Origin: Alphaproteobacteria bacterium HGW-Alphaproteobacteria-18
Lineage (GTDB): Bacteria; Pseudomonadota; Alphaproteobacteria; Caulobacterales; Hyphomonadaceae
Reading direction: 5' to 3'
DNA: 64,000 bases
NCBI GenBank assembly: GCA_002841155.1
Contig: PHEH01000001.1
Location: 297,825 to 361,824, forward strand
Below, in pieces: positions 22,256 to 24,858 of this stretch (its first letter is position 1; each line of letters opens with the position of its first letter). The notes below the pieces were generated by a model, which was not told where the DNA came from, did not search any database, and was given only the letters and a program-made list of their open reading frames with translations. The position numbers and the translations under genes were made by a program.

Positions 22256-23824
22256 TCAGTGGCAAGTGGGCTGGCCGGGGAGGCTGCATGTCCAGCCTTC
22301 GTACCAGTTGTCACTGGAGTCCCTTACGGCGCCGATATAATCGACGGGTGTCAGGAAGCCCGTGATGAATGTGTTGCTGGCGCCGAGGCCGATGCCCGCA
22401 TTCAGCTCAACAGGGAACGTCGATGCGGTGACCGCATTTTCGTTTGCGCCGTTGATGAAGCCGCCCGTCAGAGTCGAAGTACCGTTCAGGACGTTTGAGG
22501 GGTGCGTCAGCAGTGCTTCAACGGTTGCATCCGGGATATCCGTGGCTGGCGTTGTACCAGCCGCGCCGCCATCACCGTTGCCGCCTGCGCATGAGAAGAA
22601 GACCGACCGGTAAAGTGGGCCATTTCCATCAACACCATTCGGGTTGTTGAGCGTCGAGTTGGTCGCGATGTTCACACACTGGTGGTTACCAGGGTGGCGG
22701 ATGACCGAGTTGTAGACGCGAGCTGTGTGACCCGAGTTGTGAACGATGGCATCGCGCGTGCTGTTATCCCGCATCACGATGGTCCAGTTAGCGTAGGTCG
22801 GGCGGGTGAAGAAGTCAGCTGTGTTGGTGCCGCGTGAGCTGGTTTCCCATGCGAAGTCACCGCCACCATTACGCTGCATCACGATGCCGAACTGTGCTGC
22901 ACCGCGCCAGCCAGAGTCGGTATCGAAGGAGTCGTCATCATTCCCCGTGAGGACGATATAGCGGATGTTGACGTTGCCGCCGAAGATCTCGATGCCATCG
23001 TCCGAACTGTTATGAACCTGAACGTACTCAAAGGTGGTGCCGTTGCCGACGCCGGCAAGAGTGATGCCGTTCAACTCATTGTTCGGAGCAATTTCAAAAC
23101 CAGAGTAGGAGAGGCGAAGATAGCGGATCCGGCCGCTGTTGTCTGTCGGCAGGTTACCGCCGTAGAACGCGTTGGAGCCTTCAACCTGCGCTTCGCAGGC
23201 AATGTTGGGAGGCGTGACGGCGTTACAGCCATCTGTCGATGGGGCGCGTCCGTTGATAACGAGGCCGCCCCATTGGCCGATGGAGTTCTCAGTGGCCGTG
23301 CCTTCGACGTTGGCGCGGCTGGTCATGATGATCGGATTGTCAGCCTCGCCCTCGGCGAAGATCTGCGAACCGCGGTTGACCAGCAGGTAATCGCCACCCG
23401 AGTTACCGAAAATGGTGACGCCAGGTTCAATCGTCAGAACGCCCTGCGTACGGCCGGGAATCGGGTTTGCTGCGTCGGGGCCAGTGTCAGTGCCGACCTG
23501 GGTGCGTCCGGCTACGGAGTAGATGGTGCCTTCACGCTGGGGCACAACGAGGTTGCCATTGATTGTGCTCGGCAGTTGGCAAATCCGTTTGTCAGAAAGG
23601 ATGCCAACGTTGGAAAACCCGCTCGGACAGTCAGCAGCTGGCCCGCCCGTGGCCGGAGGCGGCGAGGTTGGGGGCGGGGAGGTTGGCGGTGGAGACACCG
23701 TTGGCGGCGGCACAAAAGCACCCACGCCAGGTGACGCAACGCCATCGGCGCCGCTACATGCGCCCAGCAGCGCGACTGCGGCGCAGCCGAGAAGTGCCGC
23801 GCGGAAATTGTTTTTGGTCAACAT
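22256..23824 (-). CDS. elpS: ElpS-like surface lipoprotein (predicted beta-helix body, Pro-rich N-terminal linker)
   Basis: Lipobox LGA-C23 with Ser at +2. LTIEPG, PIIMTS, WGGLVING, DNSGRIRY, ELNGITLAGVGNGT, DDGIEIFGG are typical of this TBDR-associated family. Synteny lipoprotein-TBDR-gspC matches the C. crescentus elpS locus. The symbol rests on synteny, not an alignment. Confidence 0.72.
   Translation of the reverse strand: MLTKNNFRAALLGCAAVALLGACSGADGVASPGVGAFVPPPTVSPPPTSPPPTSPPPATGGPAADCPSGFSNVGILSDKRICQLPSTINGNLVVPQREGTIYSVAGRTQVGTDTGPDAANPIPGRTQGVLTIEPGVTIFGNSGGDYLLVNRGSQIFAEGEADNPIIMTSRANVEGTATENSIGQWGGLVINGRAPSTDGCNAVTPPNIACEAQVEGSNAFYGGNLPTDNSGRIRYLRLSYSGFEIAPNNELNGITLAGVGNGTTFEYVQVHNSSDDGIEIFGGNVNIRYIVLTGNDDDSFDTDSGWRGAAQFGIVMQRNGGGDFAWETSSRGTNTADFFTRPTYANWTIVMRDNSTRDAIVHNSGHTARVYNSVIRHPGNHQCVNIATNSTLNNPNGVDGNGPLYRSVFFSCAGGNGDGGAAGTTPATDIPDATVEALLTHPSNVLNGTSTLTGGFINGANENAVTASTFPVELNAGIGLGASNTFITGFLTPVDYIGAVRDSSDNWYEGWTCSLPGQPTCH
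23654..23710 (-). repeat. Coding repeat PPP-TV-SPPP-T-SPPP-T-SPPP in the lipoprotein linker
   Basis: Residues 39-57; synonymous codons differ between units (TCT CCA CCG CCA / TCC CCG CCC CCA / TCG CCG CCT CCG). Confidence 0.95.
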
Positions 23825-23928
23825 TCAATGTCTCCGTCTAAACCCTGAGCGGGCGCGCTGACGGTTCCCCCCGTCGCGCTCGCCAGACGATCATTCTCGT
23901 CTGCCCGCAGACCGGAGCCTTAAGATTT

Positions 23929-23972
23929 GATTGCAACAGTTACGGGAAGTTTAGATGACACTTACGTGAAGC
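23929..23972 (-). promoter_or_regulatory. Pho-box-like tandem 11-bp repeats upstream of the elpS-like gene
   Basis: Minus strand GCTTCAC-GTAA-GTGTCAT-CTAA-ACTTCCC-GTAA-CTGTTGC-AATC. Confidence 0.5.
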
Positions 23973-24009
23973 GCGTGCGTGCTTGGTTGTTTGTTGCAGC
24001 TTGGCAACA

Positions 24010-24858
24010 TTACAGATCTCTGGAGTATTCCTCTGGGAACATCTCTTCCCAGCCCCGCTCTCGAAACCATTTGGTGATAACGTATTTGACGCCTGATCTC
24101 ACCTTCATGCCATGATGGATGGTATGGGGGTTGACCGTACCGTCCGGGTTCAGATTATTCCATATGACAGCTTTGCCCTTCTCAGGCATGATTGTTTTTT
24201 CCAGGCGCCGGAAGCGTGTGCCGCCGCCTTCCTCAACATCATTGAGATAGATCATGAAGGTCCAGGTGCGCTGCCCCGTGAACTGGCAGTGGACCTGATA
24301 GTCCCGTGTGCCGGGTGTAAAGTAATCGTAATGGGCCTTGTATTCCTGATCGACATCATAGCGCTGGGCCTGAGTAGCATCAGAATAGGACCAGTGGATT
24401 CCGAGAGCCTCAGCGATAAGCTCATCAAGTTGCATGACAAGGCTGTTGCCCAGAGAACCGATATCAGAAGAACGCGATGTGCGGATCTTCGGATCAGCGA
24501 AGACATCCGTTGTGGTCGATGCGCGAAGGCGTTCGTCTGTTAGGGCAACCAGCTGATCGCAGACCTCGGGAACAAGAAAATTTGGCCAGACATAGAGTTG
24601 GGCCTTAGGGGCCGGAACGCGGCGCAGCAGGGGATGGTTTTTTGCCCGGCGAACAAGGGGCGCGTTCGCCAGGGCGGCGTGATCTGCGTCTGAAACAGGC
24701 CGGCGCCCATCATAAGCGCCGCGCATGAGTGCCCTTATCGCGAGATCATCAAAACCGTTTTGCACCAGCTGGCGCTTGACCTCGTGCGGCTCCACACCGG
24801 ATCTCAGGCGGGCCCACGTATATGTCAGCCACTCATCGTTTACTGCTGGTCTTGTCAT
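24010..24858 (-). CDS. 2OG-Fe(II) oxygenase, prolyl 4-hydroxylase family
   Basis: RTSRS, KAHYD (HxD), RTWTFMIYLNDVEEGGGTRF, TIHHG (distal His), VITKW (2OG-binding Lys). No signal peptide. Start MTRPAV preferred over the upstream ATG at 24960. Confidence 0.92.
   Translation of the reverse strand: MTRPAVNDEWLTYTWARLRSGVEPHEVKRQLVQNGFDDLAIRALMRGAYDGRRPVSDADHAALANAPLVRRAKNHPLLRRVPAPKAQLYVWPNFLVPEVCDQLVALTDERLRASTTTDVFADPKIRTSRSSDIGSLGNSLVMQLDELIAEALGIHWSYSDATQAQRYDVDQEYKAHYDYFTPGTRDYQVHCQFTGQRTWTFMIYLNDVEEGGGTRFRRLEKTIMPEKGKAVIWNNLNPDGTVNPHTIHHGMKVRSGVKYVITKWFRERGWEEMFPEEYSRDL

What the first reader, a model, noticed from the sequence alone, without database searches (positions are those of the whole stretch)
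23654..24858. Prolyl 4-hydroxylase gene directly upstream of a surface lipoprotein with extensin-like (T)SPPP repeats
Seen: a cytoplasmic P4H-family oxygenase (HxD, distal His, 2OG-binding Lys) ends 185 bp upstream of, and co-oriented with, the ElpS-like lipoprotein. The lipoprotein's post-lipobox linker is PPPTVSPPPTSPPPTSPPP, with diversified codons that suggest selection at the protein level. Established: Ser-Pro(n) motifs are P4H substrates in plant and algal extensin-type proteins, and Ser/Thr in Pro-rich bacterial lipoprotein linkers are common O-glycosylation sites. Inference: this could be an undescribed bacterial enzyme-substrate pair that hydroxylates (and perhaps primes glycosylation of) a surface tether before export, which might tune stiffness or protease-dependent release. 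Alternative: the P4H acts on an unrelated cytoplasmic substrate and is only co-regulated.
Basis: partly seen in the sequence, partly recalled or inferred. Interest (0 to 1): 0.8.

Follow-up and report, generated by a model that had tools for sequence, protein, structure and literature searches.

The report
Prolyl hydroxylase beside proline-tethered surface lipoprotein
A collagen/algal-type prolyl 4-hydroxylase gene sits next to a phosphate-starvation surface lipoprotein (ElpS) with a proline-rich tether, and the pairing recurs in several bacterial orders in different gene arrangements, which makes the tether a concrete but unproven candidate for a natural substrate of a bacterial prolyl hydroxylase.

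Summary
On the minus strand, a 282-aa signal-less prolyl 4-hydroxylase (P4H, 24010-24858) ends 185 bp upstream of an ElpS-family lipoprotein (22256-23824). The ElpS tether reads VPPPTVSPPPTSPPPTSPPPA. A TonB-dependent receptor and a type II secretion cluster follow, as at Caulobacter elpS.

The enzyme is a true collagen/algal-type peptidyl P4H. All cofactor- and substrate-contact residues are present, and its best fold match is Chlamydomonas P4H-1 bound to (Ser-Pro)5.

New here: P4H genes are linked to ElpS/receptor/T2SS clusters in three separate P4H clades.
- Hyphomonas: co-oriented upstream.
- Xanthomonadales: divergent upstream.
- Sphingomonad-like: convergent, or inserted between the receptor and gspC.

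A functional link to the module is therefore well supported. Both window genes also carry conserved Pho-box-like promoters.

That the tether is the substrate is plausible (about 0.4) but unproven.
- For it: every P4H-linked ElpS has a Pro-rich tether, and none of about 30 Gly-rich ones has a P4H.
- Against it: Pro-rich is the family default outside Caulobacteraceae. At least 11 Pro-rich loci lack an adjacent P4H. The TSPPP motif is not conserved. The enzyme is cytoplasmic while the tether is Sec-exported.

I found no literature on this link.

The parts
24010..24858 (-). Prolyl 4-hydroxylase-family 2OG/Fe(II) oxygenase, 282 aa, no signal peptide.
   Evidence: Pfam PF13640. PDB sequence hits: B. 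anthracis P4H E 2e-26, human C-P4H alpha2 catalytic domain 1e-20, Chlamydomonas P4H-1 2e-16. AF2 model pLDDT 92.9. Best Foldseek hit is 3gze, Cr-P4H-1 with (Ser-Pro)5.
24709..24837 (-). N-terminal three-helix domain of the P4H (residues 8-50). It is unannotated and is shared with the ElpS-linked P4H of Xanthomonadales.
   Evidence: AF2 helices 8-19, 24-33 and 38-50 with pLDDT above 90. Conserved W..W....G..P......L...G pattern in alignment A2. No Pfam family; only a weak RecX three-helix resemblance in one homologue.
24049..24597 (-). Catalytic double-stranded beta-helix domain (residues 88-270) carrying Y167, Y173, H176, D178, T214, H248 and K258.
   Evidence: The alignment to C-P4H-II maps these residues onto Tyr421/Tyr427/His430/Asp432/Thr467/His501/Lys511, described in PMC9676403. 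They are invariant or Y/F in 37 homologues.
24896..24911 (-). Pho-box-like direct repeat GTCAT-N6-GTCAC, about 40-55 bp upstream of the P4H start codon.
   Evidence: It is the only exact GTCAY-N6-GTCAY in the 64-kb window. It is invariant in 12 Hyphomonas loci within otherwise variable spacer sequence (alignment A4). Its function is inferred from likeness to the PhoB-box consensus.
23825..24009 (-). 185-bp spacer between P4H and elpS. It is strongly conserved and has no terminator-like site on the coding strand.
   Evidence: Alignment A3 of 11 Hyphomonas loci, 72% mean column identity. Terminator scan.
23931..23970 (-). Conserved elpS promoter element with 11-bp periodic TGTCA-like repeats (TTCACGTAAGTGTCATCTAAACTTCCCGTAACTGTTGCAA). 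Probable PhoB site.
   Evidence: In more distant Hyphomonas loci it is a perfect TGTCAT-N5-CGTCAT. Caulobacter elpS is induced by phosphate starvation (PMC2996285). Function is inferred.
23756..23824 (-). ElpS signal peptide and lipobox (MLTKNNFRAALLGCAAVALLGA|C23). Sec-type, with no twin arginine.
   Evidence: Read directly from the sequence. C23 is invariant in the family alignments.
23630..23755 (-). ElpS tether (residues 24-65), predicted disordered. The Pro-rich core PPPTVSPPPTSPPPTSPPP lies at 23654-23710.
   Evidence: AF2 pLDDT is 33-62 over residues 1-60. 12 Pro in 20 residues, unique in the window. In Caulobacter, ElpS is released by cleavage at residue 38, inside this region (PMC2996285).
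22256..23629 (-). ElpS mature domain: a right-handed beta-helix of Pfam family PF28492 (Beta_helix_4).
   Evidence: Homologues carry PF28492. AF2 model has pLDDT above 90 over most of residues 66-522. There are only weak pectate-lyase-like beta-helix matches in the PDB and no PDB sequence hit.
19527..22178 (-). TonB-dependent receptor, the partner of ElpS (counterpart of Caulobacter cc0171).
   Evidence: Plug domain and TIGR01782. It lies adjacent to ElpS in nearly all of the 80 genome loci.
9716..19287 (-). Type II secretion genes gspC, D, E, F ... J, K, L downstream of the receptor.
   Evidence: Pfam T2SSC, Secretin, T2SSE, T2SSF, T2SSJ, T2SSK and T2SSL.

Best explanation
The gene encodes a cytoplasmic collagen/algal-type peptidyl-prolyl 4-hydroxylase that depends on Fe(II) and 2-oxoglutarate. 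It is an accessory component of the phosphate-starvation module ElpS (surface lipoprotein) - TonB-dependent receptor - type II secretion.

Shown here:
- The family assignment of the enzyme.
- The recurrent, rearranged gene linkage to the module in Hyphomonas, Xanthomonadales and sphingomonad-like bacteria.
- Conserved Pho-box-like elements in front of both genes in Hyphomonas.

Inferred:
- Both genes are switched on by PhoB when phosphate is scarce.
- The enzyme hydroxylates prolines in the disordered Pro-rich tether of pre-ElpS (PPPTVSPPPTSPPPTSPPP here; poly-Pro, (TP)n or (AP)n elsewhere) in the cytoplasm, before SecA-dependent export and lipidation.
- On the cell surface, hydroxyproline would stiffen the polyproline-II tether and change its sensitivity to the protease that releases ElpS. 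In Caulobacter that protease cuts inside this segment.
For: (1) Enzyme class. PDB sequence hits are B. anthracis P4H (E 2e-26), human C-P4H-II catalytic domain (1e-20) and Chlamydomonas P4H-1 (2e-16). The AF2 model (pLDDT 92.9) best matches Cr-P4H-1 bound to (Ser-Pro)5 (E 9e-18), while PHD/PPHD-type enzymes reach only about 1e-8. Y167, Y173, H176, D178, T214, H248 and K258 match the 2OG-, Fe- and substrate-proline-contacting residues of C-P4H-II and Cr-P4H.

(2) Linkage.
- 16 of 21 Hyphomonadaceae loci carry the P4H co-oriented about 188 bp upstream of elpS.
- 14 Xanthomonadales loci carry a P4H with the same two-domain architecture, divergent from elpS.
- 11 further metagenomic loci place a short P4H convergent behind the receptor, between the receptor and gspC, or upstream of elpS.
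- These enzymes fall in three separate P4H clades.

(3) Candidate substrate. ElpS is the only Pro-rich protein in the module and in the 64-kb window. All 29 P4H-linked loci of the genome set whose tether could be read whole, plus 8 in the metagenome set, have Pro-rich tethers. In one further linked locus, L010, the tether is cut by a frameshift. No Gly-rich-tether locus has a P4H: 29, plus L161 and L162. From general knowledge of the family, the tether types (poly-Pro, SPPP, TP, AP) are the classes accepted by algal, plant and viral P4Hs.

(4) Co-regulation. Conserved Pho-box-like repeats lie upstream of both genes.

(5) The tether is functionally relevant. Caulobacter ElpS is released by proteolysis at residue 38, within the tether (PMC2996285).
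Against: - No P4H in any lineage has a signal peptide, whereas the tether starts 1 residue after the lipidated Cys of a Sec lipoprotein. Modification would have to precede export, and I know of no precedent for hydroxyproline in an exported bacterial lipoprotein.
- Pro-rich tethers are the default state of the family outside Caulobacteraceae (about 81 of 85 Sphingomonadales homologues). The tether/P4H correlation therefore rests on very few independent contrasts.
- At least 11 Pro-rich loci lack a P4H within the held flanks (L004, L017, L020, L021, L030, L032, L051, L074, L163-L165). L004 shows a clean absence of the gene between the same neighbours.
- The closest non-Hyphomonas relatives of the enzyme (about 50% identity) mostly lie in housekeeping synteny (ccm genes, Leu-dehydrogenase-like gene, bamA) with no ElpS nearby. 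This hints at a substrate that need not be encoded next door.
- B. anthracis P4H has been reported to modify EF-Tu (title of PDB entry 5v7y).
- There is no transcript or proteomic evidence.
Confidence: 0.4

Rival explanations
1. The hydroxylase really belongs to the phosphate-starvation ElpS/receptor/T2SS response but acts on a different, cytoplasmic protein. Candidates are EF-Tu or another translation or regulatory factor, as reported for Pseudomonas PPHD and B. anthracis P4H. It would tune translation or signalling when phosphate, iron, oxygen or 2OG are limiting. The Pro-rich tether would then be irrelevant.
For: The enzyme is cytoplasmic in every lineage. PDB entries 5v7y (BaP4H 'interacts with and modifies EF-Tu') and 4iw3 (PPHD with EF-Tu) are among the fold matches. 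A large sister clade lies in housekeeping synteny without ElpS. Pho-box-like promoters would explain co-expression without an enzyme-substrate relation. Pro-rich ElpS loci do without an adjacent P4H.
Against: This does not explain why the gene has been kept or recruited next to this one module in three clades and at least four arrangements, including insertion between the receptor and gspC. The fold and sequence are much closer to poly-Pro-acting P4Hs than to PHD/PPHD-type EF-Tu hydroxylases (E about 1e-17 versus 1e-8).
Confidence: 0.3
2. The enzyme acts on a small molecule brought in by the TonB-dependent receptor, for example an organophosphorus or proline-containing compound. The precedent is the P4H-like PiuC/YbiX oxygenases encoded next to the PiuA/Fiu receptors.
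For: The linkage is to a receptor-containing uptake module, and in several sphingomonad-like loci the P4H abuts the receptor gene rather than elpS. A cytoplasmic location fits processing of an imported compound. The PiuC/YbiX-receptor pairing is recalled from general knowledge and was not tested here.
Against: There is no match to any NCBIfam model, including the PiuC/YbiX-type families. The residues and loops typical of peptidyl P4Hs are conserved, including the substrate-proline-contacting Tyr. The best fold match is a peptide-bound P4H.
Confidence: 0.1
3. There is no functional relation. The adjacency is inherited synteny within a few lineages, and the enzyme has an unrelated role.
For: The gene is absent from the locus in three Hyphomonas species, in Arenimonas and in all four sampled Sphingomonadales genomes, with no visible change in ElpS. 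Most P4H homologues in the metagenome scan (about 68 of 80) are not near ElpS.
Against: Three distinct P4H clades are linked to the same module in different orientations and positions across two proteobacterial classes. That is very unlikely for a random gene in genomes of several thousand genes. Conserved Pho-box-like elements stand before both genes.
Confidence: 0.15
4. The hydroxylase modifies a translation factor such as EF-P to help ribosomes through the polyproline run of the tether.
For: PPP runs stall ribosomes and need modified EF-P (general knowledge). This would reconcile a cytoplasmic enzyme with a link to a Pro-rich gene.
Against: Many P4H-linked tethers have no consecutive prolines beyond PP, for example Xanthomonas PAPAPTPAPTPAP and sphingomonad-like (TP)n. 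Such sequences are not strongly EF-P-dependent. Nothing in the locus points to EF-P.
Confidence: 0.05

Closest known systems
Chlamydomonas reinhardtii P4H-1 and plant/viral (PBCV-1) monomeric P4Hs acting on poly-Pro, (Ser-Pro)n and extensin/AGP-type motifs
   Same: Same catalytic fold (best Foldseek hit 3gze, TM-score normalised to the target 0.79). Same HxD...H triad, 2OG-binding Lys/Tyr/Thr and the betaI-betaII Tyr that contacts the target proline. The candidate substrate is a non-collagen PPII-type Pro-rich stretch.
   Different: Those enzymes work in the ER/Golgi lumen, after translocation of their substrates, and the product is then O-glycosylated. This enzyme is cytoplasmic, has an extra N-terminal three-helix domain, and no glycosyltransferase is nearby.
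Bacillus anthracis P4H (BaP4H; PDB 3itq, 5hv0, 5iax, 5v7y)
   Same: It is the closest solved sequence relative (about 30% identity over 180 residues, E 2e-26). It is also a bacterial enzyme of uncertain natural substrate.
   Different: BaP4H is a roughly 216-aa single-domain protein that has been studied on collagen-like (GPP)n peptides and EF-Tu. It is not known to be linked to a lipoprotein/TonB-receptor/T2SS module or to phosphate starvation.
Caulobacter crescentus ElpS (cc0170) - cc0171 TonB receptor - T2SS locus
   Same: Same lipoprotein family, same gene order, surface lipoprotein with a disordered tether, and phosphate-starvation context.
   Different: Caulobacter and its relatives have Gly-rich or TTP tethers and no P4H within 10 kb.
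PiuC/YbiX PKHD-type hydroxylases next to the TonB receptors PiuA/Fiu
   Same: A P4H-superfamily oxygenase genetically coupled to a TonB-dependent receptor. This resemblance is recalled from general knowledge.
   Different: No sequence match to those families. A different regulon (Fur/iron versus a putative Pho regulon) and a different domain architecture.
Cytoplasmic modification of Sec-exported surface proteins (HMW1C glycosylation of HMW1; Aah/TibC heptosylation of autotransporters)
   Same: These show that a cytoplasmic enzyme can modify a protein before Sec export, which the best explanation requires. This comes from general knowledge.
   Different: The chemistry differs (glycosylation, not hydroxylation), the substrates are not lipoproteins, and there is no homology.

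Membership tests
Collagen/algal-type peptidyl-prolyl 4-hydroxylases (P4Hc, 2OG-FeII_Oxy_3) | Double-stranded beta-helix catalytic fold most similar to known P4Hs. | tested here: met
   AF2 model pLDDT 92.9. The top 34 Foldseek hits are all P4Hs (Cr-P4H-1, BaP4H, C-P4H-II, PBCV-1, P4H-TM), with E down to 9e-18.
Collagen/algal-type peptidyl-prolyl 4-hydroxylases (P4Hc, 2OG-FeII_Oxy_3) | Fe(II) triad His-x-Asp...His, plus 2OG-binding Lys, Tyr and Thr. | tested here: met
   H176, D178, H248, K258, Y167 and T214 align with His430/Asp432/His501/Lys511/Tyr421/Thr467 of C-P4H-II. They are invariant in 37 homologues.
Collagen/algal-type peptidyl-prolyl 4-hydroxylases (P4Hc, 2OG-FeII_Oxy_3) | Conserved betaI-betaII loop Tyr that contacts the proline to be hydroxylated (Cr-P4H Tyr140 / C-P4H-II Tyr427). 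| tested here: met
   Y173 aligns with it (PMC9676403). The position is Tyr or Phe across homologues.
Collagen/algal-type peptidyl-prolyl 4-hydroxylases (P4Hc, 2OG-FeII_Oxy_3) | Hydroxylates peptidyl proline. | not testable with these tools
   Needs an enzyme assay or mass spectrometry.
ElpS-family surface lipoproteins (PF28492 Beta_helix_4) paired with a TonB-dependent receptor | Homology to the family and a beta-helix fold. | tested here: met
   2130 homologues, and those listed carry PF28492. About 50% identity to the proteins at Caulobacter loci. AF2 gives a right-handed beta-helix.
ElpS-family surface lipoproteins (PF28492 Beta_helix_4) paired with a TonB-dependent receptor | Lipoprotein signal with lipobox Cys, followed by a low-complexity tether. 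| tested here: met
   LLGA|C23, invariant Cys. Residues 24-65 are disordered in the model.
ElpS-family surface lipoproteins (PF28492 Beta_helix_4) paired with a TonB-dependent receptor | Encoded next to a TonB-dependent receptor and, in Proteobacteria, a T2SS cluster. | tested here: met
.
ElpS-family surface lipoproteins (PF28492 Beta_helix_4) paired with a TonB-dependent receptor | Induced by phosphate starvation; surface exposed and released by proteolysis. | tested here: inconclusive
   Only a conserved Pho-box-like element was found. No expression data exist. Neighbouring PstS, phosphate porin or alkaline phosphatase genes at some homologous loci fit a Pho context.
PiuC/YbiX PKHD-type hydroxylases linked to TonB receptors | Sequence membership (NCBIfam/Pfam models of that family). 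| tested here: not met
   No NCBIfam family at E <= 0.01 for the window protein and none relevant for the Xanthomonas homologue.
PHD/PPHD-type prolyl hydroxylases (HIF or EF-Tu hydroxylases) | Closest fold and sequence relatives are PHD2/PPHD. | tested here: not met
   PPHD (4j25, 4iw3) and PHD2 appear only at E about 1e-8, about nine orders of magnitude weaker than collagen/algal-type P4Hs. They are absent from the PDB sequence hits.
Extensin-like hydroxyproline-rich substrate | Conserved Ser-Pro(3-5) repeats. | tested here: not met
   TSPPP is present in the window but not in orthologues, which have poly-Pro, (TP)n, (AP)n or APV variants. Only proline richness is conserved.
Extensin-like hydroxyproline-rich substrate | Contains hydroxyproline, with or without O-glycans. 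| not testable with these tools
   Needs mass spectrometry. No glycosyltransferase gene lies in the neighbourhood.

The most novel reading that the evidence does not exclude
Bacteria make a hydroxyproline-bearing surface tether. A Pho-controlled cytoplasmic P4H hydroxylates the polyproline-II linker of a lipoprotein precursor before Sec export, which sets the stiffness, reach and protease-dependent release of a TonB-receptor-associated surface protein. This would be the first natural structural substrate of a bacterial collagen-type P4H, and a bacterial counterpart of plant and algal hydroxyproline-rich proteins.
Probability: 0.35. Interest if true: 0.8.

Novelty: new variant of a known kind. 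Interest (0 to 1): 0.62.

Why it matters
The natural substrates of bacterial collagen-type prolyl hydroxylases are still unsettled, and hydroxyproline is almost unknown in bacterial envelope proteins.

A conserved genetic link between such an enzyme and a single Pro-rich surface lipoprotein gives a concrete substrate candidate. It can be tested in tractable organisms: in Xanthomonas the ElpS homologue is XAC0692 and the P4H-like gene lies divergent beside it, and Hyphomonas is another option.

If the tether is the substrate, this would add a new post-translational modification to bacterial surface lipoproteins and to the phosphate-starvation response. It would also show that a cytoplasmic oxygenase can mark a Sec substrate before export.

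If the tether is not the substrate, the conserved linkage still adds an unrecognised O2-, Fe- and 2OG-dependent component to the ElpS/TonB-receptor/T2SS module.

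Tried and rejected
- **Transcript evidence.** Only DNA metagenomes (groundwater, lake) hold this sequence and no RNA run was found. Co-transcription could not be tested.
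- **N-terminal three-helix domain.** No Pfam or NCBIfam family matches; there is only a sub-threshold RecX three-helix match in one homologue. Its role is unknown.
- **PiuC/YbiX membership.** No model match, so the protein is not filed there.
- **EF-P helper idea.** Rejected because many P4H-linked tethers are (AP)n or (TP)n without PPP runs.
- **Other Pro-rich candidates in the module.** None was found. No other real ORF in the 64-kb window reaches 8 Pro in 20 residues.
- **Hidden divergent P4H genes in the 'no P4H' loci.** A 14-query P4H panel at E 1e-3 found none.
- **Tether/P4H correlation.** The raw table looks striking: P4H-linked loci 29 Pro-rich and 0 Gly-rich, unlinked loci 29 Gly-rich and 8 Pro-rich. 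I do not treat it as strong evidence. Gly-rich tethers are nearly confined to one family, and Pro-rich is the default elsewhere.
- **Pho boxes in the divergent Xanthomonadales spacers.** Only half-site-like elements (CTGTCAC ... TATAAC) and TGTGTCA repeats with non-canonical spacing were found. This is inconclusive.
- **ElpS fold search.** Only generic beta-helix matches, with no functional clue.
- **Literature.** Searches for a P4H-ElpS, P4H-Pho or P4H-lipoprotein link returned nothing relevant.

Full report
**What is in the window**

On the minus strand the order is:
- tamA/tamB (26431-32393);
- an XRE-type HTH gene (25868-26251);
- a divergent secreted CAP/YkwD-family gene (about 25039-25794, plus strand);
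- the P4H gene (24010-24858);
- a 185-bp spacer;
- an ElpS-family lipoprotein gene (22256-23824);
- a 77-bp spacer;
- a TonB-dependent receptor (19527-22178);
- gspC, D, E, F ... J, K, L (9716-19287).

The organism is a Hyphomonas. The closest genomes are H. polymorpha PS728 and relatives, at about 87-90% protein identity. The exact sequence occurs in groundwater and lake metagenomes. The elpS - receptor - T2SS layout is the one described for Caulobacter cc0170/cc0171/gsp, and was also noted for Hyphomonas neptunium and Xanthomonas (PMC2996285; PMC7777525; bioRxiv 10.1101/2023.03.17.533168).

**Check of the observation**

- The P4H is 282 aa from the ATG at 24858 and has no N-terminal hydrophobic segment.
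- It ends exactly 185 bp before the elpS ATG.
- ElpS has the lipobox LLGA|C23 and the tether SGADGVASPGVGAFVPPPTVSPPPTSPPPTSPPPATGGPAAD. Its 12 proline codons are mixed (CCG x6, CCA x4, CCC x1, CCT x1).
- ElpS is the only real ORF in 64 kb with a Pro-rich stretch.

One correction: the TSPPP repeat is not a conserved motif. Relatives at 89% identity have PPPSSPPPPPPPPPAPPPP or TAPAPTPPTTPTTPTTP. More distant ones have (TP)n, (AP)n or APV repeats. Only proline richness and tether length (about 40 residues) are conserved.

**What the enzyme is**

Pfam gives PF13640. Against PDB sequences the catalytic domain (residues 88-270) matches:
- B. anthracis P4H, E 2e-26;
- the human C-P4H-II catalytic domain, 1e-20;
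- Chlamydomonas P4H-1, 2e-16;
- PBCV-1 P4H, 1e-8.

An AlphaFold2 model from 37 homologues is confident (pLDDT 92.9, pTM 0.90). Its best structural match is Cr-P4H-1 in complex with (Ser-Pro)5 (3gze, E 9e-18), followed by BaP4H and C-P4H-II. The EF-Tu/HIF-type hydroxylases (PPHD, PHD2) appear only at about 1e-8.

Using the alignment to C-P4H-II and the residue roles described in PMC9676403:
- Y167, T214 and K258 correspond to the 2OG-binding Tyr421, Thr467 and Lys511;
- H176, D178 and H248 correspond to the iron triad;
- Y173 corresponds to the betaI-betaII tyrosine (Cr-P4H Tyr140), which touches the proline being hydroxylated.

All are invariant in the family, or Tyr/Phe at 173. So this is a peptidyl-prolyl 4-hydroxylase of the collagen/algal type, not a PiuC/YbiX-type or PHD-type enzyme. 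Residues 8-50 form an extra three-helix domain with no family assignment.

**What the lipoprotein is**

Homologues carry the new Pfam family PF28492, Beta_helix_4. The AF2 model shows residues 1-60 disordered (signal peptide and tether), followed by a confident right-handed beta-helix with no close solved relative.

In Caulobacter, ElpS is surface-anchored, made under phosphate starvation and released by proteolysis at residue 38, which lies inside the tether.

**Is the pairing more than a local accident?**

Yes. In 80 genome loci of ElpS homologues with 10-kb flanks:
- 16 of 21 Hyphomonadaceae loci have the P4H co-oriented about 188 bp upstream;
- 14 Xanthomonadales loci (Xanthomonas, Luteimonas, Pseudoxanthomonas, Novilysobacter, one gammaproteobacterial MAG) have a P4H on the opposite strand, separated from elpS by a 130-310-bp divergent spacer.

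The xanthomonad protein is only about 30% identical, but it has the same two-domain architecture, including the N-terminal three-helix domain.

A reciprocal scan of metagenome contigs with a P4H alignment found 12 of 80 P4H loci next to ElpS, receptor or gsp genes. Eleven of these are short, single-domain P4Hs in yet other arrangements:
- convergent behind the receptor (L091, L099, L119, L129);
- on the opposite strand between the receptor and gspC (L136, L150, L116, L128, L143, L153);
- upstream and co-oriented with a divergent T2SS (L145).

In a tree of the catalytic domains these fall into three separate ElpS-linked clades. Linkage that survives this much rearrangement across two proteobacterial classes is very unlikely without a functional connection to the module.

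**Regulation**

Within Hyphomonas the 185-bp spacer is highly conserved. It contains 11-bp periodic TGTCA-type repeats. These are TGTCAT-N5-CGTCAT in most relatives. In the window the upstream half is degenerate: TTCACGTAAGTGTCAT, at 23931-23970.

Upstream of the P4H there is an invariant GTCAY-N6-GTCAY (24896-24911). It is the only exact match in the window and is conserved in 12 loci whose surrounding spacer is otherwise variable.

Both elements resemble the PhoB box (CTGTCAT-N4-CTGTCAT, from general knowledge). I therefore infer that each gene has its own phosphate-starvation promoter. No terminator-like site lies between them on the coding strand. In Xanthomonadales the evidence for Pho boxes is inconclusive. 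No RNA data exist.

**Is the tether the substrate?**

Points in favour:
- The enzyme class acts on PPII-type Pro-rich peptides.
- ElpS is the only Pro-rich protein of the module.
- All P4H-linked loci whose tether could be read whole have Pro-rich tethers: 29 in the genome set and 8 in the metagenome set. In one further linked locus (L010) the tether is cut by a frameshift.
- None of 29 Gly-rich loci has a P4H. Two extra contrasts agree. A hyphomonad-type double-ElpS paralogue with a Gly-rich tether has no P4H (L161). The one clearly Gly-rich Sphingomonadales homologue, in Sphingomicrobium flavum, also has no P4H (L162).

Points against:
- Gly-rich tethers are almost confined to Caulobacteraceae, and Pro-rich tethers are the norm elsewhere (about 81 of 85 Sphingomonadales homologues). 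The correlation therefore amounts to very few independent events.
- At least 11 Pro-rich loci lack a P4H within the flanks. Among them are three Hyphomonas loci, and in L004 the gene is simply missing between the same CAP and elpS neighbours. The others are Arenimonas loci and three of four sampled Sphingomonadales genomes.
- Most P4H relatives at about 50% identity lie in housekeeping synteny without ElpS.
- No P4H has an export signal, so the tether of a Sec lipoprotein would have to be modified before export. From general knowledge, cytoplasmic glycosylation of HMW1 and of autotransporters shows this is possible in principle, but it has never been shown for hydroxylation.

**Verdict**

- A functional link between this P4H and the ElpS/TonB-receptor/T2SS phosphate-starvation module is well supported. 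I put it at about 0.85.
- The specific enzyme-substrate reading is the best single hypothesis at about 0.4.
- The rivals are a different cytoplasmic protein substrate such as EF-Tu (0.3), mere synteny (0.15), a small-molecule role (0.1) and an EF-P-type helper role (0.05).
- I found nothing on this association in the searchable literature.
- It is best classed as a new variant of a known kind: a bacterial collagen-type P4H with a new domain and a defined genomic partner.

It is worth an experiment because it names a concrete candidate for the long-unsettled natural substrate of bacterial P4Hs.

Noticed in passing
window 24979-25794 (+), likely true start about 25039: A secreted CAP/YkwD-family protein gene lies divergent from the P4H in all Hyphomonas loci that carry the P4H. 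The shared spacer also holds a conserved TGTGTCAA plus near-palindrome ATACATAATTTTGTAT, and a second Pho-box-like site at 25006-25022.
   Followed up: partly
window 26431-32393 (-): A TamB (1370 aa) and TamA/Omp85 (616 aa) translocation-and-assembly pair lies just upstream of the locus. An XRE-type HTH gene (25868-26251) sits between them and the CAP gene. This neighbourhood is conserved in the closest Hyphomonas genomes.
   Followed up: partly
L161 (JGI Ga0209344_10000244), 7701-10484; proteins P0047-P0079: A widespread paralogue family of 'double ElpS' proteins (about 830-910 aa, two tandem beta-helix modules) with Gly-rich tethers. Each has its own TonB receptor and a divergent T2SS cluster, and no P4H.
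   Followed up: partly
L084-L160 (many, e.g. L086, L106, L110): A large clade of short (about 210 aa) P4H genes sits in a conserved housekeeping neighbourhood (ccmF/E/H/C, a Glu/Leu/Phe/Val-dehydrogenase-like gene, bamA-like, rseP, skp), often next to a tRNA gene. Their substrate is unknown and may bear on what the ElpS-linked enzymes do.
   Followed up: partly
L010 10001-10151: In one Hyphomonas-like MAG the elpS reading frame is broken inside the proline-rich tether. This is either a frameshift or an assembly error in the low-complexity run.
   Followed up: no
L051 8713-9744; L162 8409-9710; L165 14820-18592: At other ElpS loci the immediate neighbours are PstS-like phosphate-binding proteins, a phosphate-selective porin (Porin_O_P) or an alkaline phosphatase. 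This independently fits a phosphate-starvation role for the module.
   Followed up: no
L145 about 6887 (ElpS N-terminus MMNSNFRRMLIATTSLVALSGC): One sphingomonad-like ElpS has an RR pair in its signal peptide that loosely resembles a twin-arginine motif. The other ElpS signal peptides looked at have no RR pair.
   Followed up: no
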